From a phage, in sequence record PZ452599.1: 51,263 bases of DNA; one strand, 5' to 3'. Positions 20,401 to 51,263 of the stretch are shown here, piece after piece (the first letter of the stretch is position 1; the number at the start of each line of letters is the position of its first letter). The notes under the pieces are model-generated. The model made no database searches, was not told the origin of the DNA, and saw only the letters and a list, made by a program, of their open reading frames with translations. A program made the position numbers and the translations under genes.

Positions 20401-20674
20401 TTTTGCACCTCAAATCAATGAATTTTCTTTCATCTTGCCAACGGTTGATAAATTTAACTTCTTTATTGTCAACGCTCAACCTGTATTGCTTTTGGCTGAA
20501 TCTGTTTTCGCGGACAGCATTAATTTTAACTTCATGGAATCCGTTAACAGGGAATGTTTTAACGTTAAATTTTGCCGTGCAATCGATCTCCTTGAAGTTA
20601 CCAGTAGGCGAATAAGAACATCCGGTCAGAGCGGCTACGGTGGATATAACTGCGATTAATTTTTTCATCTTCAA
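20393..20674 (-). CDS. outer-membrane lipoprotein, Cor/Llp-like superinfection exclusion candidate
   Basis: 93 aa; signal peptide with lipobox LTGC (MKMKKLIAVISTVAALTGC); first gene of leftward operon driven by a motif-type promoter. Confidence 0.55.
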   Translation of the reverse strand: MKMKKLIAVISTVAALTGCSYSPTGNFKEIDCTAKFNVKTFPVNGFHEVKINAVRENRFSQKQYRLSVDNKEVKFINRWQDERKFIDLRCKNG

Positions 20675-20699
20675 TACCCCTTAGTTGTTGTTGGCTGTA

Positions 20700-20743
20700 A
20701 CTATACACGATCCGGCAAGCCGAGTTTAGCAAAAAGTGCTACT
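20700..20743 (-). promoter_or_regulatory. motif-type promoter (variant GTAGCACTTTTTGCTAAAC plus TATAGT) for lipoprotein operon
   Basis: Motif reverse-complemented on + strand at 20725-20743; -10-like hexamer 18-19 nt downstream on the - strand. Confidence 0.45.
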
Positions 20744-21112
20744 TGTTATTTTTTGTTTTCAGGTGTTATCGGATTTAAGACGGCGTAAATTTAGCGCAAA
20801 TTTTAACCAACATAAGAACAATAAATAATCAATAAAATAGGTATATACATATAAAATCAATAGTTTATTTATTTATGTATGTGTATTTGTTTTTTCTTGT
20901 TATCTGTGTTTCTTGTGGTTTTGGTTGTTTGTGGTGATTTTTCTTTCTGAGTATCTGTGTGTGCCATCATTCATGTGTATGTATATAATCCTGCGTATCT
21001 GAGAGAACAGAGGAACAAGAAAAATAACACATATTAATCATTAATTTACGTGTCAGATTTGTTTTCTTGTCATCTGAGAACGTTTAGAAAACAGAAAAAA
21101 ACAAAACAACTA

Positions 21113-21140
21113 TTGACTAAATCAACCAAATGGCTACAAT
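21113..21140 (+). promoter_or_regulatory. sigma70-like promoter (TTGACT, 16 nt spacer, TACAAT) for the recombination operon
   Basis: Hexamers at 21113-21118 and 21135-21140, about 30 nt upstream of the RBS of gene 21171; A-rich GAACAAGAAAAA box upstream. Confidence 0.55.
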
Positions 21141-21170
21141 GCACACACAAAGCAACGAGGAGCATTAAAG

Positions 21171-22226
21171 ATGAGTGATTTTAACGCCTATACTAGCGAA
21201 GAAATGAGCAATGAGCTTTATCATGATCCTAACGCGTGGACGGCTGAATACGTCAGCGGTTCCAGCCTGGCGGAGATTTACAGCACTTGCCCTGCGTACT
21301 GGAAGTACAAGCCTCGCCAGGAAACCAAAGCACTTGTTTTCGGTACGCAGTCGCATACCAATTTTGAAAGCAAGGAGTTATTCGAAAAAACATATCGCCG
21401 CGCACCGTCGCAGGATGATTTTAAAGATCTGATCACAAGTCAAACGGCGTTGGCCTCAAAGCTGAAATCTTTTGGCCTGAAAGGTACAACGGGTAAGCAA
21501 TACCCCGAATTGCTGGAAATGCTGTACAAGTGCGGTGAGGATCTCAATGTATGGTGGCTTATCGAAATGATGGCAGAATGCCAGGCCGCAGCGGAAGGCG
21601 TGCAGTTAATCGACGCGAAAGATTATGATGCCTGTGTAGCGATGCGGCGCGTACTTGAGGCAATACCTGAGCATAATGCTTGCATGAATAGCCCAACCGC
21701 GCAGCGTGAAATGTCAATATTCGGGATCATCAATGGCGTAAAAGTTAAAGTGCGCCTTGATCACGTTGACGTAAACAAGGATGTAAAGGCCACAATCATT
21801 AACGGTTACGACGAAAAAGGCCGACCTATTTATGAAGAAGTCATCTATCCAGAAGCTGTGATTATAACTGACTATAAAACAACGGTTAGCGCAAATCCGG
21901 TTGACTTCCAGCGTCTGGCTTACAATCACGGCTATTATCTCAAAATGGCTTTGCAACATGATTTATTCAAAAAGGCGTATCCAGACGAGGAAAGACCAGT
22001 AATTGTGAGATTGCTTGCTCAAGAGAAGAAAGAGCCTTACTTGCCGCTCGCATTCCGAATGAACATTGAGCAATTGAAGATCGGGCGTATCCAGTACATG
22101 AGCGTGATCAACAAGTTCAACGTTTGCCAACAGTTAGATGAATGGCCTTCGTATGCAAACGGACAACCAGAAATTGATCTTGATACTCCTGATTGGGTGC
22201 GCGCTCAATTCAGGCAGTATCTATAA
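21171..22226 (+). CDS. putative recombination exonuclease (PD-(D/E)XK superfamily)
   Basis: 351 aa; GAGGAG RBS; RLDHVD...IITDYKTT nuclease-like motifs; first gene after a sigma70-like promoter; upstream of Erf-like and SSB genes. Confidence 0.55.
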   Translation: MSDFNAYTSEEMSNELYHDPNAWTAEYVSGSSLAEIYSTCPAYWKYKPRQETKALVFGTQSHTNFESKELFEKTYRRAPSQDDFKDLITSQTALASKLKSFGLKGTTGKQYPELLEMLYKCGEDLNVWWLIEMMAECQAAAEGVQLIDAKDYDACVAMRRVLEAIPEHNACMNSPTAQREMSIFGIINGVKVKVRLDHVDVNKDVKATIINGYDEKGRPIYEEVIYPEAVIITDYKTTVSANPVDFQRLAYNHGYYLKMALQHDLFKKAYPDEERPVIVRLLAQEKKEPYLPLAFRMNIEQLKIGRIQYMSVINKFNVCQQLDEWPSYANGQPEIDLDTPDWVRAQFRQYL

Positions 22227-22559: not shown

Positions 22560-23216
<657 letters not shown>

Positions 23217-23221
23217 TAAAC

Positions 23222-23243
23222 GGGGCGCTTGCGCCCCTTTTGT
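23222..23243 (+). terminator. intrinsic terminator / attenuator between Erf-like and ssb
   Basis: Hairpin GGGGCGC-TTG-CGCCCC followed by TTTT. Confidence 0.5.
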
Positions 23244-23259
23244 CATAGGAGAAAACAAA

Positions 23260-23712
23260 ATGCACGTTATTACAGGTGAGATCAGAAAAGAGCCAAAGGT
23301 AAAGCAAATGCCTAACGGCAGCACGCTATATGTTGTTGAGCTTTCCGAGCGATACAAAGACCGAGAGGGAAATTGGCAGTATACAAACTATGTGTTTTTC
23401 TTTAACGCGAAAACAGACGGCCTGAATGGTTGGTATGCTGAGGCTTTCCAAGTAGGAAAGGTTATTTCTGTTTCCTGCGATACCTTGCGAGTTGAAACGC
23501 GAGAATACAACGGAAAGATTTACAGCACCGTGCAGCCTGGCGGATTTGCAAACCTGCTATTTAGCCAGCGCGGAGAAAGCCAGCAACAATATCAGCAGCG
23601 AACGCAAGGAGGCTGGGGGCAACCACAACAGCAACAGCAACAAAATACTCAACAGCAGCCACAGCAAAGCAATCAGCCGCCGATTGACTTTGACGATGAT
23701 ATACCATTCTAA
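23260..23712 (+). CDS. ssb: single-stranded DNA-binding protein
   Basis: 150 aa from ATG 23260 (GGAG RBS); Q/P-rich linker and canonical acidic tail DFDDDIPF. Confidence 0.85.
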   Translation: MHVITGEIRKEPKVKQMPNGSTLYVVELSERYKDREGNWQYTNYVFFFNAKTDGLNGWYAEAFQVGKVISVSCDTLRVETREYNGKIYSTVQPGGFANLLFSQRGESQQQYQQRTQGGWGQPQQQQQQNTQQQPQQSNQPPIDFDDDIPF

Positions 23713-27137: not shown

Positions 27138-27614
27138 TTAGCTATTCGTGCTGTTATCACCTTTGTAGAATCGTCCGCCTGGTTCGTAGTCTGAATTTTT
27201 GACTACGCGCAACATTTCGTATTTGTCGCAACGGGTAGTAAGTGGCTTGCCGTTAGAGTCAAACCGCAGATCTGGACGACAAAATGATGCGCGGTATCCT
27301 TTGCATCCATTATATTTGTAGTCGTTATGCACCTTTTGTGCTCCGGAGGCTGAAATCATACCACGCTTTCGCCATTGGTTAACGACTTGCTGAGATACGC
27401 GCAGACGTCGAGCCATAGCAGGAACACCGCCGTAATACTCGATCAGAATGTCAAGGCGAGATTTCAGGCTTGCTTTTACCTCATCTCGCAGGATAAGAAA
27501 TCCGGTTCGGTGTTTTCGTGGCTTTTTGTCTTTACCTCTTCGCGTTCCGTTGTTACCGTTAATAGTGCGCTTGTCGATCTCACCCGTAGACACTGCAATT
27601 CGTGCATCTTTCAT
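27138..27614 (-). CDS. putative HTH DNA-binding protein
   Basis: 158 aa; GAGGTG RBS; central helix-turn-helix-like segment ARRLRVSQQVVNQWRKRG; start abuts a motif copy. Confidence 0.45.
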   Translation of the reverse strand: MKDARIAVSTGEIDKRTINGNNGTRRGKDKKPRKHRTGFLILRDEVKASLKSRLDILIEYYGGVPAMARRLRVSQQVVNQWRKRGMISASGAQKVHNDYKYNGCKGYRASFCRPDLRFDSNGKPLTTRCDKYEMLRVVKNSDYEPGGRFYKGDNSTNS

Positions 27615-34638: not shown

Positions 34639-34960
34639 CGCCCATCTCCCCTATTCTAGCCATATCCCTGATCCAGTCGTTGCGCATACCATCCAGGCTA
34701 TACAATTCGAATCCGAAAGGCCGCTTTGACGATCCTTTGGACCAGTATTTTCCGCAGACCCCATCTATATAACCAGCCGTCATCATTCTTGCGCAAAATT
34801 CCTTAGATGCAAGGCTGGCGAACATTCGCGGCGTAAGTCCGGCGGCCCGTGCGATCCGCTCGCATTCTCTATGCTGATAGATAAATTTGGCTATGTGCTG
34901 CCTGTTAAACCAGTCGTATGACTCACACCATTTATACAGATCAAGCAAAAACATAATCAT
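34565..34960 (-). CDS. hypothetical protein
   Basis: 131 aa; ATGA overlap with upstream gene stop. Confidence 0.5.
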   Translation of the reverse strand: MIMFLLDLYKWCESYDWFNRQHIAKFIYQHRECERIARAAGLTPRMFASLASKEFCARMMTAGYIDGVCGKYWSKGSSKRPFGFELYSLDGMRNDWIRDMARIGEMGDDELFQAKANRQDLEALRRKFNIT

Positions 34961-36537
34961 CCCAGCAGTATTGGATTTACAAAAATAACACCATTAATCA
35001 CACAAACATAATTTCTCTCTTCCAGCATTGGCAGCAAGTGCCCTTCTATCCTCTTCATTACGCCAGCTTGACCAACGAAAGGTTTTACCTTTCTCGCTGA
35101 TTCGTACAGGGCGCGAATATTCAGAATCCCTTTATTAGCCTTGCCGTGTCTAGTGATCAATTCAATCAATTTACCCATTTCAGCATCATCACCAGCATAA
35201 CCAGAAGCATTGGCGGCGCTAATGTATGTTTTGCTCAATTCCTGAAACATGATCAGCGCCTCTTGCATTGTTTCCACGTCGATCTCTTTCGACTTCTGCG
35301 GGTATCCAGCAGGATTAAACCAGTTGCGGATAACATGCAGGACGGAAGCAAGCCTGATCACCTGTTTATCCATTTTACCAAGCGCACCGCGTAACATTGT
35401 ATGAGAATACTTTCCGCCGTCTGCAAGATGCGGTTCCATATCCTGACGAGCAATGTTTAGCACTCGCATAGCTGAACGGCTTATTTTCAGCGATATATTT
35501 GATTCGCTCATGATGTTATGCACCAATTGATAATATTGGGCCTTCAATTCAGAATCCACCGCCTCATAGGTAGAATCACCATTTTCATCAATGAATGAGC
35601 GACGGCCTAAGAATGATTCCTCGCGGACCAACAAAAAGCGCTCACTCACACCGATACCGCGCGATCCAGCGTCCATGATTCCGCTTATCGTTTCATCCTG
35701 GGCTATAACGCTCATACATCCAAGCGCGCGAAAACTCATGTTATTGTCAGCATTAGCACGGGCAATTGATACGTGACCATTATCCCACGCCTTAAGCACT
35801 AGCTCACTGTTAGTCTTCCTTTCGCTATTTGCATAGGTCAAGCCTAGCAGACTGTTAATACTTGTTGCTTCGTCAGATATTACGGCAAAGTTACCTTGCT
35901 TGTTGTTGATTTTCGCCAAGCCTTCTGGAGTGGTATCTGAAACAGGGAAAGTTATATCACACATCTTTTCCAGCTTCTCCTCCAGATCCTCTTTTTCCTG
36001 GTATAGAGATTCCATATCAGCGCCTGATCTTTCGCTTTTCATCTCCTTTGCAAGACCTGCCAACTTTGCCTGTATTTTCTTTCTTTCCTTGCGGCGTTGC
36101 TCGTTGATCTTCTCAACTTCCGCAATCATCGGAGCAATAGCCATGCTGTTGATCGCAGATTTACCAGTTGACGGCGGCTGGCTTGTAACGACGTAAAGCG
36201 CAGTCGGCTGATCTGTTCCGTGATAGTCAACCGTAAAGCGTCCAAGCATAGCGGCAGAAATGCAGCCGATAAAGTGCATGTAAGCCGATGATTCAGGGAA
36301 TTGAACGGATCGCGCAATGCTGCGTGATAGCTTGCCGACAACATCAATATCATTACCAAGAGAAATAACGGGGTAGCGATCGTGACCGCTATTTACATCC
36401 TTCACGTCGCCCCAAAAGCTGGACGACTGGCGATAGCCGTTAGCCTGAATTGATACGCGAACTGGTGAAAGGTTCTGGCTTTCAGCCATAGCGATTATTT
36501 GCTGTGGAGTTAATTTGTTCGTTTCTAATGAAAACAT
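34957..36537 (-). CDS. P-loop NTPase, putative replication-associated protein
   Basis: 526 aa; AAAGGAGA RBS; Walker A-like SQPPSTGKSA; large early gene on the same strand as primase. Confidence 0.5.
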   Translation of the reverse strand: MFSLETNKLTPQQIIAMAESQNLSPVRVSIQANGYRQSSSFWGDVKDVNSGHDRYPVISLGNDIDVVGKLSRSIARSVQFPESSAYMHFIGCISAAMLGRFTVDYHGTDQPTALYVVTSQPPSTGKSAINSMAIAPMIAEVEKINEQRRKERKKIQAKLAGLAKEMKSERSGADMESLYQEKEDLEEKLEKMCDITFPVSDTTPEGLAKINNKQGNFAVISDEATSINSLLGLTYANSERKTNSELVLKAWDNGHVSIARANADNNMSFRALGCMSVIAQDETISGIMDAGSRGIGVSERFLLVREESFLGRRSFIDENGDSTYEAVDSELKAQYYQLVHNIMSESNISLKISRSAMRVLNIARQDMEPHLADGGKYSHTMLRGALGKMDKQVIRLASVLHVIRNWFNPAGYPQKSKEIDVETMQEALIMFQELSKTYISAANASGYAGDDAEMGKLIELITRHGKANKGILNIRALYESARKVKPFVGQAGVMKRIEGHLLPMLEERNYVCVINGVIFVNPILLG

Positions 36538-40942: not shown

Positions 40943-41214
40943 TACTTCTTGATCTCCTCACTGATAAATTTCAGCACCTGACGCAAGAAAACCTCGTTGT
41001 TGATAGTCGCTGGCAATTCTTCTTTCACTTCTTGCGGCAGATAGATATTGCCGTGCCAGGTCAAGCAATCGTAGTTGATACGATAAGAGCAAAGCCACTC
41101 GCAATCGTTATCTGCTTCCCAAATACAGAGTTGCAGAACATCGCCAAAATCTTCAACAGTCAGATCCAGACCGTGACGCTTAGCGAAATTGAAAGTGGTT
41201 TTGCTGATGTTCAT
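40942..41214 (-). CDS. hypothetical protein
   Basis: 90 aa; GGAG RBS; first gene downstream of motif promoter 41249-41293. Confidence 0.5.
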   Translation of the reverse strand: MNISKTTFNFAKRHGLDLTVEDFGDVLQLCIWEADNDCEWLCSYRINYDCLTWHGNIYLPQEVKEELPATINNEVFLRQVLKFISEEIKK

Positions 41215-41248
41215 TGCTATCTCCTGAGCGGTTCGTTTTGATGTGTGT

Positions 41249-41293
41249 AATGTACCCGATCAGACGACCTGAGTTTTAACAAAAAGTGCTATT
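41249..41293 (-). promoter_or_regulatory. motif-type promoter with conserved leader
   Basis: Motif 41273-41293; TACATT -10; leader ACACACATCAAAACGAACCG; upstream of gene 40942-41214. Confidence 0.5.
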
Positions 41294-41322
41294 TGACGGT
41301 TAGCGCCAGGATTGTGATCGAA

Positions 41323-41413
41323 ATAATCAGAAGTAATCATTCGTAATCAAATCACGTCAAAATGATGATTGCCTTTGCAAATTTGATGAGAAAAGTAATC
41401 ACGTTTAATCATT
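41323..41413. repeat. cluster of short GTAATCA / TAATCA iteron-like repeats
   Basis: At least five copies in 90 bp inside the 600-bp non-coding region; a related TTAATCATTAAT element occurs at about 21035-21047. Confidence 0.45.
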
Positions 41414-41831
41414 GGTTGCAGGGGAGATAGTGAAACCTTCCCCTCTTGCCTCACTTTTCCGCCTGGCTGTCAGTGGTTGTTATGTTCCGTTCCCACGTGT
41501 TTTTTTGTTGACCTTCCGCAAAATACGATAACAAAAAATAACAAACAATACCTATATAATACATTGAAAAATAAGGATTATTTATTTATATGTATCTATA
41601 TATTCTCTTTTGTTATCTTGGTTATTGTGGTATTTGGTGGGGGTATATAGTTTTTGTGTATCTGTATGTGTGTATGGGTATGTAGGGGCATATATATCTA
41701 TATGGCGCTTTCCGCGCGAAAACTTCGATAACAGGCAATGATAACATTGATTTATAAGGAAAAATAACGCCCATATTGTTATTGTGCCACCATATAAAAT
41801 TGATAAAACACGCGGGAACAAGAAAAAACAG

Positions 41832-41860
41832 TTGACACATTAAATAGCATTATTGATAAT
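41832..41860 (+). promoter_or_regulatory. sigma70 consensus-like promoter (TTGACA, 17 nt spacer, GATAAT) for the rightward early operon
   Basis: Hexamers at 41832-41837 and 41855-41860; GGAACAAGAAAAA box immediately upstream; RBS and ATG 41889 follow. Confidence 0.6.
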
Positions 41861-41888
41861 GCCCACACCTAACAACCAGGAGGCAGAA

Positions 41889-42353
41889 ATGAGCGAGCAA
41901 TCATTCACTGACACGCTGCGCCGTGCCGCTATTATGCTGGCTAACGGCGAGGAAGAGACGATCAAGATTCCTGACGCGTATTTGCAGGTCCACATGTTCG
42001 GCAAGAAGTCGGCAAGCAATCCGGCGGCCTACATTCGCCAGATCATGAGTCGAGTGCCAGAAGTCGCCGAGCGGGGGCGCGTATCCGTTACCCGTGGCGT
42101 TTACGGGCCGGAAGATGAAAACTTCGGTAGCACTTTCTACGAGGTGCGGATTGTTGAAGGTCGCCGCAAGGTTTACAACAAAGAGGCACTGGAAAGGGCA
42201 GTACGCCAGGCCAAGCGCAAAGTTGCAGAGGCGATCATTGATATGTCACCCAACCTGGCAAACTATGAGCCGGAAGAGTACGAAACATTATCAAAGGCCG
42301 TCGCTGACTTTCACGCGATGATCAAAAAAACTTTCCTGGAGGATGAGCAATGA
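41889..42353 (+). CDS. hypothetical early protein
   Basis: 154 aa from ATG 41889 (AGGAGG RBS); first gene after canonical promoter 41832-41860. Confidence 0.55.
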   Translation: MSEQSFTDTLRRAAIMLANGEEETIKIPDAYLQVHMFGKKSASNPAAYIRQIMSRVPEVAERGRVSVTRGVYGPEDENFGSTFYEVRIVEGRRKVYNKEALERAVRQAKRKVAEAIIDMSPNLANYEPEEYETLSKAVADFHAMIKKTFLEDEQ

Positions 42354-50736: not shown

Positions 50737-51263
50737 ATGGCTAAAAACGTTGAGCCTGCTGTAAAGGCATTAAATTTCAAAGAGTTATACAATAAAACTT
50801 ATGGCGATATTGTTACGCTAAACAACCGCCACAAGTACACGCCGGAACAGGTTTTTGATATGGCGATCCGCTATTTCACTTGGGCCGAAGAGAATCACAT
50901 CCAGGCGGCTGAAACTGCTTCCTTTCAGGGTGACGTGTACGAGAGCAGAGTTTACAAGCCTCGCGTTTTCACGGTTAACGGATTCAGCTTGTATCTCGGC
51001 GTGACTGAGGCCGCCGTAAGCAAATGGCGTAAAGAGCCTGGATTCTGCGATGTGATGGAGTTTGTTGATAAAGTAATTTACGAGCAAAAATTCCAGCTTG
51101 CGGCAAATAACATGATTAACGCTGGATTTATCGGTAAAGAGATCGGAGTAGAGAAGCCAGCAACAGTGAGCGTTGAAGCGAGCGCGGCAGCTAATGCAAG
51201 CATTGACGCAGTAACTGCCGATGAGGTGAAAGAGGCTGTGATTGATATTCTGGAGCAACTTTA
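50737..51263 (+). CDS. terS: terminase small subunit (3' end completed only if window ends are joined)
   Basis: AAAGGAGGA RBS; 175 codons to window end; final TA plus position 1 A forms TAA overlapping terL ATG; HTH-like FSLYLGVTEAAVSKW segment. Confidence 0.6.
   Translation, partial: MAKNVEPAVKALNFKELYNKTYGDIVTLNNRHKYTPEQVFDMAIRYFTWAEENHIQAAETASFQGDVYESRVYKPRVFTVNGFSLYLGVTEAAVSKWRKEPGFCDVMEFVDKVIYEQKFQLAANNMINAGFIGKEIGVEKPATVSVEASAAANASIDAVTADEVKEAVIDILEQL

What the first reader, a model, noticed from the sequence alone, without database searches (positions are those of the whole stretch)
41294..41888. 600-bp non-coding region with iteron-like GTAATCA repeats, GT-rich repeats and a consensus promoter: candidate origin / master control region
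The region contains five or more GTAATCA-type repeats (41323-41413), a hairpin (41421-41445), GT-rich repeats similar to those at 20880-20960, a GGAACAAGAAAAA box, and TTGACA-17-GATAAT. It lies between divergent early transcription units, and no replication initiator was recognised elsewhere, so an origin here is plausible.
Basis: inference. Interest (0 to 1): 0.5.

Follow-up and report, generated by a model that had tools for sequence, protein, structure and literature searches.

The report
Packaging start site plus early-promoter control region
This 675-bp gene-free stretch of a T1-like coliphage holds the site where DNA packaging most likely starts, two divergent early promoters, and an unusually AT- and GT-rich module of unknown role that is a candidate origin and occurs twice in the genome.

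Summary
The window is a complete Warwickvirus genome (Drexlerviridae, T1-like). Positions 41215-41888 are non-coding and lie between divergent early operons.

The TAATCA cluster (5 copies in 90 nt, 10-bp phased) is unique in the genome and far beyond chance. The TTGACA-17-GATAAT promoter is conserved family-wide. The GT-rich tract does resemble 20880-20960.

The TAATCA repeats and hairpin sit in a 186-bp block (41296-41481). That block is missing from the paralogous intergenic region at 20.7-21.2 kb and is 95-99% conserved in about 60 relatives. GenBank records of five relatives are opened within about 20 nt of its hairpin, three of them within 1 nt (window 41429|41430). The T1 and TLS record origins (TLS's set at its restriction-mapped pac site) and the SU57 PhageTerm end lie in the same intergenic region. 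I read this block as the pac (headful-packaging start) site, not as origin iterons.

The right half (41482-41830) has a paralogue upstream of the recE operon. Together they hold the genome's two AT-richest and two GT-richest segments, flanked by inverted ATAACAA arms. The same two loci are AT-richest in T1 and Klebsiella phage Sushi. Its function is unknown. It could be an origin or an early-promoter control element; I did not test either.

The parts
41249..41254 (-). -10 element (TACATT) of the leftward promoter P_L
   Evidence: It lies 19 nt downstream of the 19-nt box, as at the other ~19 boxes, each of which is followed by a (C/T)ATAAT-like hexamer.
41274..41292 (-). 19-nt phage promoter box ATAGCACTTTTTGTTAAAA, the upstream element of P_L
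   Evidence: Perfect match to the box. The pattern (<=3 mismatches) gives 23 hits in the window against 2.4 expected; about 20 are clear copies, most of them co-oriented with the gene downstream. It equals the 21-nt direct repeat described for TLS (PMC11447400).
41296..41481 (.). Proposed pac module (terminase recognition and first cut)
   Evidence: Absent from the paralogous intergenic region at 20.7 kb. The 41215-41480 query containing it is 95-99% identical in 59 relatives, and identity drops right after 41481. It holds the positions where records of relatives are opened.
41324..41349 (+). Three TAATCA repeats, 10-bp phased (left cluster)
41357..41392 (.). Central segment with TGATGA motifs and the small palindrome TTGC-N4-GCAA
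   Evidence: Sequence. T1 has similar ATGATGA / TGATT / TTGCA motifs around its record origin.
41396..41411 (+). Two TAATCA repeats, 10-bp phased (right cluster), ending 18 nt before the predicted cut
   Evidence: TTTAATCA or AATAATCA sits at a similar distance in Hanrivervirus and Tlsvirus.
41418..41449 (.). Imperfect hairpin and conserved block GGGGAGATA|GTGAAACC; predicted first packaging cut between 41429 and 41430 (about +-10 nt)
   Evidence: XY3 and PHB17 records open exactly at |GTGAAACC, G29-2 1 nt to the left, haarsle 8-9 nt to the left, YSP2 11 nt to the right. The fold is weak.
41482..41830 (.). AT/GT-rich module, paralogue of 20745-21110; exists as two alleles (~65-70% identical) among Warwickviruses
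41527..41541 (+). Left inverted arm GATAACAAAAAATAA
   Evidence: Inverted repeat I9, 87% complementary to 41603-41617. ATAACA occurs 7 times in 41460-41830 against 0.3 expected.
41551..41604 (.). AT-rich core CCTATATAATACATTGAAAAATAAGGATTATTTATTTATATGTATCTATATAT, containing a TATAAT at 41555-41560
   Evidence: It lies within the second AT-richest 100-nt window of the genome (41520-41619, 83% A+T). It is almost identical in both alleles. TTATTTATTTAT occurs only here and at 20865.
41603..41617 (+). Right inverted arm TTCTCTTTTGTTATC
   Evidence: I9.
41605..41690 (+). GT-rich tract (84% G+T)
   Evidence: The composition is conserved in allele B, IG_20k, haarsle, G29-2 and TLS.
41815..41827 (+). 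GGAACAAGAAAAA box
   Evidence: GGAACAAG occurs only at 41815 and 21012. It belongs to the RKAACAARA motif set, of which 5 of 13 genomic copies lie in the two modules.
41832..41860 (+). Rightward early promoter P_R, TTGACA-17-GATAAT
   Evidence: 11 of 12 consensus positions. A TTGAC(A/G/T) promoter sits at the same place in allele B, haarsle, G29-2, T1, TLS, SU57 and Sushi.
41878..41891 (+). Shine-Dalgarno AGGAGG and ATG of the first rightward gene (DUF7174, 154 aa)
20669..21171 (.). Paralogous intergenic region between the cor-like gene (-) and the recE-like exonuclease gene (+); it lacks the pac block

Best explanation
The region is the composite left-end control region typical of T1-like phages. 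I divide it into four parts.

1. **41215-41295, leftward promoter.** This promoter belongs to the phage's own class: a 19-nt box ATAGCACTTTTTGTTAAAA followed 19 nt later by TACATT.

2. **41296-41481, the pac site.** The P22-gp3-type small terminase is proposed to bind the helically phased TAATCA repeats, three on the left and two on the right of a central segment. The terminase then makes the first cut about 18 nt further right, at GGGGAGATA|GTGAAACC (41429|41430). Headful packaging proceeds rightward. This arrangement recalls the hexamer clusters of P1 pac and the pacL side of SPP1 pac.

3. **41482-41830, an AT/GT-rich module present twice per genome.** It consists of inverted ATAACAA arms, the most easily melted AT core, a GT-rich tract, a second TATATA run and (G/T)AACA repeats. 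Its role is inferred only. Most likely it is a binding platform for a genus-specific protein that either opens DNA (an origin) or controls the adjacent immediate-early promoter.

4. **41832-41860, consensus sigma-70 early promoter.** It drives the rightward early operon.

**What is shown:** the sequence anatomy, its statistics, the paralogy, the conservation pattern, the record break-points and the terminase family. **What is inferred:** terminase binding to TAATCA, the exact cut position, and the function of the AT/GT module.
For: **Identity and layout**
- The window is 97-98% identical to Warwickvirus genomes.
- In T1 the record origin and the annotated terminal redundancy (1-2800) lie in the same divergent intergenic region.
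- The TLS pac site was restriction-mapped, and TLS coordinate 1 lies in the equivalent TGATT-repeat block.
- The SU57 end, from PhageTerm plus a coverage step, is in the corresponding untranslated region.

**Record break-points at the conserved GGGGA..GTGAAAC block**
- XY3 and PHB17 open at the same nucleotide, G29-2 1 nt away, haarsle 8-9 nt away and YSP2 11 nt away.
- Korf et al. state that their contigs were linearised where most reads ended.

**The block is a discrete unit**
- It is absent from the paralogue.
- The query containing it is 95-99% identical in 59 relatives, and the flank to its right is replaced by a second allele.
- The TAATCA cluster is unique and non-random.
- TerS is PF16677 GP3_package, 30% identical to P22 gp3.

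**Promoters:**

**The AT/GT module**
- Extreme composition at both loci.
- The same two loci are AT-richest in T1 and in Sushi, where the recE operon is inverted.
- Inverted arms and motif enrichment.
Against: - I have no read-level or experimental data for this phage.
- Record origins can be conventions. How XY3, PHB17, haarsle and YSP2 were linearised is not documented in what I could read.
- T1 coordinate 1 and TLS coordinate 1 lie about 60 and 80 nt left of the conserved block, not on it.
- The hairpin is no more stable than shuffled sequence.
- TAATCA repeats are not conserved in T1, SU57 or PHB17. These carry TTGCA-type repeats instead, so the identity of the recognition element is a guess.
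- The repeats also lie at about -40 to -130 of P_L and could be activator or repressor sites.
- For the AT/GT module nothing separates an origin from promoter control.
Confidence: 0.62

Rival explanations
1. **Replication origin in the AT/GT module.** The AT-rich core (41551-41604) and its paralogue at about 20.8-20.9 kb, flanked by inverted ATAACAA-type arms, are the phage's origins. A genus-specific DNA-binding protein and/or transcription from the neighbouring promoters melts the core. The GT-rich non-template tract could stabilise an R-loop. The phage primase and DUF3987 helicase are then loaded.
For: - The two AT-richest and two GT-richest segments of the genome are these two loci.
- The same two loci are AT-richest in T1 and in Sushi.
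- Inverted arms flank the core, with genus-specific sequence: GATAACA here, GGTAAGAT/ATCTTACC in Sushi.
- ATAACA occurs 7 times against 0.3 expected.
- No origin has been identified in this family (TLS paper; SU57 paper).
- The phage encodes a primase and helicases but no recognised initiator.
Against: - No functional data exist.
- There are no DnaA boxes in either region; the genome has only 2. The only IHF consensus is in the 20.8-kb copy.
- The DUF3987 helicase is >=99.4% identical in phages carrying either allele of the module, so it does not co-vary with the arms.
- No similarity to plasmid origins.
- GC skew merely tracks gene orientation.
- The modules always sit upstream of a consensus early promoter, which equally suits a transcriptional role.
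Confidence: 0.3
2. **The first reader's version.** The GTAATCA repeats are iterons of a replication origin bound by an unrecognised initiator, with the hairpin and AT-rich DNA alongside.
For: The repeats are real, direct and phased at 10 bp. The region lies between divergent early operons.
Against: - The repeat block is the one part missing from the paralogous module.
- It is separated from the AT-rich core by more than 130 nt.
- It coincides with record break-points and mapped pac positions in relatives.
- No neighbouring protein co-varies with it.
Confidence: 0.08
3. **Purely transcriptional control region.** The TAATCA repeats are upstream activator or repressor sites for P_L. The ATAACAA/GAACAAG motifs are operators through which a phage regulator switches the two consensus immediate-early promoters. 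Candidates are the Cro/YdaS-like HTH protein at 27138-27614 or the DUF7174 product of the first rightward gene. The AT/GT tracts act as bendable or supercoil-absorbing spacer DNA.
For: - Both modules lie directly upstream of two of the few near-consensus sigma-70 promoters that fall in intergenic DNA (21113 and 41832).
- An HTH regulator is encoded.
Against: - Most motif copies lie 90-300 bp upstream of the promoter rather than over it.
- This reading does not explain why record ends cluster at the hairpin.
- Foldseek found no significant match for DUF7174.
- The 20.7-kb paralogue stays 91-97% conserved in all Warwickviruses, whichever allele of the 41-kb module and DUF7174 gene they carry.
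Confidence: 0.2
4. **Hidden small genes or a structured non-coding RNA.** The region encodes small proteins or a structured RNA.
For: Some depositors annotate short ORFs here. A conserved TATAAT at 41555-41560 could start a GU-rich transcript.
Against: - The annotated ORFs differ in strand and position between alleles and lack Shine-Dalgarno sequences.
- The curated BASEL record annotates none.
- Rfam finds nothing above threshold and ARAGORN finds nothing.
- An 84% G+T tract cannot form stable helices.
- No -35 element precedes the TATAAT.
Confidence: 0.05

Closest known systems
pac region at the left end of coliphage T1 (NC_005833; terminal redundancy annotated 1-2800) and of TLS (AY308796; pac restriction-mapped, PMC11447400)
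   Same: - Same position: the roughly 0.7-kb gap between the divergent early operons, about 9 kb upstream of the terminase genes.
- Same order of elements: leftward box promoter, TGATT/TAATCA/TTGCA-type repeats, GGGG..GTGAAAC-like block, TATATA/GT-rich DNA, (G/T)AACA repeats, TTGAC promoter.
- Homologous TerS: 54% identity to T1 and about 72% to its nearest relatives outside Warwickvirus.
   Different: - The repeat sequences differ: TAATCA here, GATTAC/TTGCA in T1, TGATTT in TLS.
- The T1 and TLS record origins lie 60-80 nt left of the block where five other records break.
- For this genus no pac mapping has been published that I could find.
P1 pac and SPP1 pac (from my own knowledge, not tested here)
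   Same: - P1 pac has clusters of a hexamer (TGATCA/G) on both sides of the cleavage zone.
- SPP1 pac has TerS-binding repeats (pacL) on the non-packaged side of the cut and a second site (pacR) on the packaged side.
- Here 3 + 2 phased hexamers lie on the non-packaged side of the predicted cut, and about 50 nt of conserved DNA lie on the packaged side.
   Different: - There is no sequence similarity.
- The P1 hexamers contain Dam sites; TAATCA does not.
- P22, SPP1 and P1 pac sites lie inside or next to the terminase genes. This one is about 9 kb away.
TLS 21-nt direct repeat aaATAGCACnnnTTGnTAAAA (PMC11447400)
   Same: The box at 41274-41292 on the minus strand is a perfect copy. About 20 copies occur in this genome, most of them co-oriented with the gene downstream, and about 60-75 nt upstream of the start codon for the copies that directly precede a gene.
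   Different: The TLS authors left the function open (stoperator, enhancer or UP element). Here each box is followed at 19-21 nt by a -10-like hexamer, so the box spans about -50 to -32. That suggests an activator-dependent promoter class. This is my inference.
Iteron-plus-AT-rich origins (lambda ori, SaPI ori, P4 ori/crr; SPP1 oriL/oriR as a two-copy precedent) (from my own knowledge)
   Same: Short repeats flank the most easily melted DNA. There are two paralogous copies per genome, and each sits next to strong promoters.
   Different: - No cognate initiator is identified.
- The arms are inverted single or double copies rather than arrays of four or more direct iterons.
- There are no DnaA boxes and no functional evidence.

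Membership tests
pac site of a headful-packaging phage | The phage encodes a headful-type small and large terminase | tested here: met
   TerS (50737-51263) matches PF16677 GP3_package and is 30% identical to P22 gp3. TerL (1-1569) matches Terminase_6C.
pac site of a headful-packaging phage | The physical left end of the first packaged genome maps to the site | tested here: inconclusive
   The evidence is indirect. Records of XY3 (same genus, identical local sequence), PHB17, G29-2, haarsle and YSP2 open within about 20 nt of 41430, three of them within 1 nt. T1, TLS and SU57 ends lie in the same region. There are no reads for this phage, and the linearisation methods are only partly documented.
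pac site of a headful-packaging phage | The site is unique in the genome | tested here: met
   The TAATCA cluster occurs once. The block is absent from the paralogous intergenic region.
pac site of a headful-packaging phage | TerS binds the site, and there is a submolar pac fragment or terminal redundancy | not testable with these tools
   This needs EMSA or footprinting and restriction or read-start analysis of virion DNA. It has been reported for T1 and TLS only.
Iteron-type replication origin | An array of direct repeats next to an AT-rich unwinding element | tested here: inconclusive
   The TAATCA repeats are phased but lie more than 130 nt from the AT core. The AT core itself is flanked by one inverted pair of ATAACAA arms plus scattered copies.
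Iteron-type replication origin | A cognate initiator that co-varies with the repeats | tested here: not met
   The DUF3987 helicase is >=99.4% identical in phages with either allele. The only co-varying gene is DUF7174, of unknown function, with weak winged-helix hints.
Iteron-type replication origin | Host initiator sites (DnaA boxes) | tested here: not met
   The pattern TTWTNCACA has 2 matches in the genome and none in either intergenic region.
Iteron-type replication origin | Replication starts there | not testable with these tools
   This needs marker-frequency sequencing, 2D gels or a plasmid replication assay.
Sigma-70 promoter | -35 and -10 hexamers with 16-18 nt spacing, correctly placed and conserved | tested here: met
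   TTGACA-17-GATAAT matches 11 of 12 positions and ends 28 nt upstream of the start codon. Equivalent promoters are present in eight relatives from four subfamilies.
TLS-type 21-nt repeat / phage box promoter | Match to aaATAGCACnnnTTGnTAAAA, intergenic, co-oriented with the gene downstream | tested here: met
   Zero mismatches at 41274-41292 on the minus strand, 60 nt upstream of the leftward ATG.

The most novel reading that the evidence does not exclude
The two paralogous AT/GT-rich modules (41482-41830 and 20745-21110) are the long-sought replication origins of T1-like phages. Each has inverted, genus-specific arms flanking the genome's most meltable DNA, followed by a GT-rich tract. They would be opened by a genus-specific binding protein and/or by transcription (an R-loop on the G-rich non-template strand). 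They would then be used by the phage primase and DUF3987 helicase without any classical initiator.
Probability: 0.3. Interest if true: 0.6.

Novelty: new member of a known kind. Interest (0 to 1): 0.4.

Why it matters
T1-like phages (Drexlerviridae) are common laboratory contaminants and therapy candidates. Their pac sequence has been placed only roughly, and only for T1 and TLS. Their origin of replication has never been identified.

This analysis gives a nucleotide-level prediction for the packaging cut and a candidate recognition element. Both would help with correct genome orientation, with engineering and with understanding transduction by these phages.

The analysis also separates out a twice-repeated, family-wide AT/GT-rich module with genus-specific inverted arms. 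That module is a concrete, testable candidate for the missing origin or for the switch that controls immediate-early transcription.

Tried and rejected
- **Rfam** (permissive search on the region, gathering thresholds on the whole window) and **ARAGORN**: nothing above threshold.
- **Plasmid collection search** with the right half: no match.
- **DnaA boxes and IHF consensus sites**: none in the 41-kb region.
- **Hairpin stability**: not different from shuffled sequence.
- **GC skew**: the cumulative skew turns wherever gene orientation turns (about 23, 28, 34 and 41 kb), so it is not independent evidence for an origin.
- **Helicase co-variation with the two alleles**: none.
- **First homology search with the window's DUF7174 protein**: only one cluster found.
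- **T1 genome paper**: not held in the library. Literature searches found no mapped origin or transcription start sites for T1-like phages. No paper on PHB17 was found.
- **First motif pattern GDAACAARAA**: it was mis-specified and uninformative. I replaced it with RKAACAARA.
- **Chi-like reading of the GT tract**: considered and dropped. There is no GCTGGTGG anywhere in the genome.

Full report
**What the window is.** The 700 nt around the finding are 97-98% identical to Escherichia phages NorthRox, MikeNSara, tiwna and PeterMerian (Bas05). All are Warwickvirus, Tempevirinae, Drexlerviridae, that is, T1-like siphoviruses. The window is a whole genome opened at the ATG of the large terminase gene. 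The small terminase gene occupies 50737-51263. The finding lies between the last leftward early gene (ATG at 41214, minus strand) and the first rightward early gene (ATG at 41889).

**Checking the observation.**
- TAATCA occurs at 41324, 41334, 41344, 41396 and 41406. Three of these copies are GTAATCA.
- This is the only place in the genome where any hexamer reaches five same-strand copies in 90 nt. None of 2000 simulated genomes exceeded three TAATCA per 90 nt. None of 200 simulations had any hexamer at five.
- The hairpin (41418-41449) exists but is no more stable than shuffled sequence.
- The promoter TTGACA-17-GATAAT (41832-41860) matches 11 of 12 consensus positions.
- The short ORFs in the region differ in strand and position between alleles, and the curated BASEL annotation leaves them out. 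The region is therefore non-coding.

**A paralogue at 20.7-21.2 kb.** The whole intergenic region between the cor-like gene and the recE-like exonuclease gene (20669-21171) aligns with the 41-kb region. The shared elements, in order, are:
- the leftward AAAAAGTGCTA box;
- TTGTTAT;
- an A-rich stretch;
- TTATTTATTTAT (only two copies in the genome);
- a GT-rich tract;
- a TATATA run;
- GGAACAAGAAAAA (GGAACAAG occurs only twice in the genome);
- a rightward TTGAC promoter.

The two loci hold the genome's two GT-richest 80-nt windows (87.5% and 84% G+T; mean 50%, sd 6.8%). They also hold its two AT-richest 100-nt windows (84% and 83% A+T). The one thing the 20.7-kb copy lacks is 41296-41470, the TAATCA repeats and the hairpin.

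**The left block looks like the pac site.** Three observations mark 41296-41481 as a separate unit.
1. It is the insertion relative to the paralogue.
2. The 41215-41480 query that contains it is 95-99% identical in 59 related records. Identity collapses right after 41481, where most relatives carry a second allele only about 65-70% identical.
3. It holds the points at which public records of relatives are opened.

The break-points are as follows.

| Record | Genus | Break |
|---|---|---|
| XY3 | Warwickvirus (locally identical sequence) | GGGGAGATA\|GTGAAACC |
| PHB17 | Changchunvirus | GAGGGGAATC\|GTGAAACC |
| G29-2 | Hanrivervirus | GAGGGGAT\|AGAGAAAC, 1 nt to the left |
| haarsle | Hanrivervirus | 8-9 nt to the left |
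| YSP2 | Tlsvirus | 11 nt to the right |

Further support comes from other records and papers.
- Korf et al. state that their contigs, which include G29-2, were linearised where most reads ended (PMC6563267).
- The T1 record begins about 60 nt left of its homologous GAGAGGGGGGAT block and annotates 1-2800 as the terminal repeat.
- The TLS pac site was restriction-mapped, and its coordinate 1 lies about 80 nt left of its GTGAAAAC (PMC11447400).
- The SU57 end, from PhageTerm plus a coverage step, is in the same untranslated region (PMC7718038).
- The phage has a P22-gp3-family small terminase.

I conclude that the first headful cut most likely falls at 41429|41430 (about +-10 nt). The TAATCA repeats, just to its left on the non-packaged side, are the likely terminase recognition element. 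TTTAATCA or AATAATCA sits at a similar distance in Hanrivervirus and Tlsvirus. T1, SU57 and PHB17 instead carry TTGCA-type repeats there, so the recognition element is inferred, not shown.

**Promoters.** P_R is conserved as a TTGAC(A/G/T)-16/18-(-10) promoter in both alleles and in haarsle, G29-2, T1, TLS, SU57 and Sushi. P_L belongs to a different class.
- The 19-nt box ATAGCACTTTTTGTTAAAA has about 20 clear copies (23 pattern hits against 2.4 expected), most of them co-oriented with the gene downstream.
- Each copy is followed 19-21 nt later by a (C/T)ATAAT-like hexamer.
- This is the 21-nt direct repeat reported for TLS.
- Its position, about -50 to -32, suggests an activator-dependent promoter class. 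That is my inference.

**The right half.**
- Inside 41482-41830 the AT-rich core (41551-41604) is nearly identical in both alleles.
- The core is flanked by an inverted pair, GATAACAAAAAATAA and TTCTCTTTTGTTATC (I9).
- ATAACA occurs 7 times against 0.3 expected.
- Five of the 13 genomic RKAACAARA sites lie in the two modules.
- The same two loci are the AT-richest in T1.
- They are also the AT-richest in Klebsiella phage Sushi (Webervirus), where the recE operon is inverted and the module has moved with it. There the arms are a different motif, ATCTTACC / GGTAAGAT.

So the architecture is family-wide: genus-specific inverted arms around the most meltable DNA, then a GT-rich tract, twice per genome, each upstream of a consensus early promoter. 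It fits an origin, and no origin is known for this family. It fits a control element for immediate-early promoters equally well.

Tests that could have separated these readings were negative or weak.
- No DnaA boxes and no plasmid-origin similarity.
- The DUF3987 helicase does not co-vary with the alleles.
- The DUF7174 protein does co-vary, but shows only weak winged-helix-like structural matches.
- GC skew follows gene orientation.

**Verdict.** The reading as a master control region is right, but the reading of the iteron-like repeats as an origin is probably wrong, because they mark the packaging start. The origin idea survives only for the AT-rich core, which I rate at roughly 0.3. The pac and promoter parts are ordinary for T1-like phages, so I file the region as a new member of a known kind. 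The duplicated AT/GT module is the part worth an experiment.

Noticed in passing
window, about 20 sites (e.g. 1566, 9945, 30115, 31186, 37265, 39464, 39970, 42610, 43073, 44291, 45815, 48611): The 19-nt box ATAGCACTTTTTGTTAAAA gives 23 pattern hits against 2.4 expected, about 20 of them clear copies. Most copies are co-oriented with the gene downstream. Each is followed 19-21 nt later by a (C/T)ATAAT-like hexamer, and often a GC-rich hairpin lies between the two. It looks like a phage-specific, activator-dependent promoter class. The TLS paper left its function open.
   Followed up: partly
window 20669-21171: This is a second divergent intergenic region, between the cor-like gene and the recE-like gene. 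It is a paralogue of the finding's region minus the pac block. It holds the genome's most GT-rich and most AT-rich windows and the only IHF consensus site (20855-20867) found in either region.
   Followed up: partly
window 41482-42353 versus L004-L007 (JLBYU19, mar002J2, tonnikala, G3B1): Warwickviruses carry two alleles of the right half of the intergenic region together with the first rightward gene (DUF7174; about 30% protein identity between alleles). The window's allele is about 72% identical to Hanrivervirus DNA, which suggests exchange between genera.
   Followed up: partly
L011 430-900 (phage XY3, MN781674): XY3 has an extra 100-codon gene inserted just upstream of the leftward first gene. 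The insertion carries its own copy of the box promoter and 5' leader, like a moron-type insertion made by duplicating the promoter module.
   Followed up: no
window 27138-27614 (-) and 34957-36537 (-): A Cro/YdaS-like HTH protein is encoded next to the primase gene. A DUF3987 helicase is >=99.4% identical across all Warwickviruses. These are the obvious candidates for the box-promoter activator and the replicative helicase.
   Followed up: partly
phage collection hits MG0656xx ('Campylobacter phage' A118, A139, E6 and others): Records labelled as Campylobacter jejuni phages share this T1-like intergenic DNA (71-91% identity) and TerS (about 72%). They look like T1-like coliphage-type genomes, so the host label may be wrong.
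   Followed up: no
whole window: GATC occurs 311 times in 51 kb, consistent with the Dam-like methylase. DnaA-box matches are few (2 against 6.2 expected). There is no Chi site (GCTGGTGG).
   Followed up: no
window 23581-23662: A local cluster of CAGCAA/ACAGCA hexamers (4 copies each) lies at the 3' end of the ORF at 23209-23712, the position of the SSB gene in PeterMerian. It is probably a Gln-rich coding repeat.
   Followed up: no
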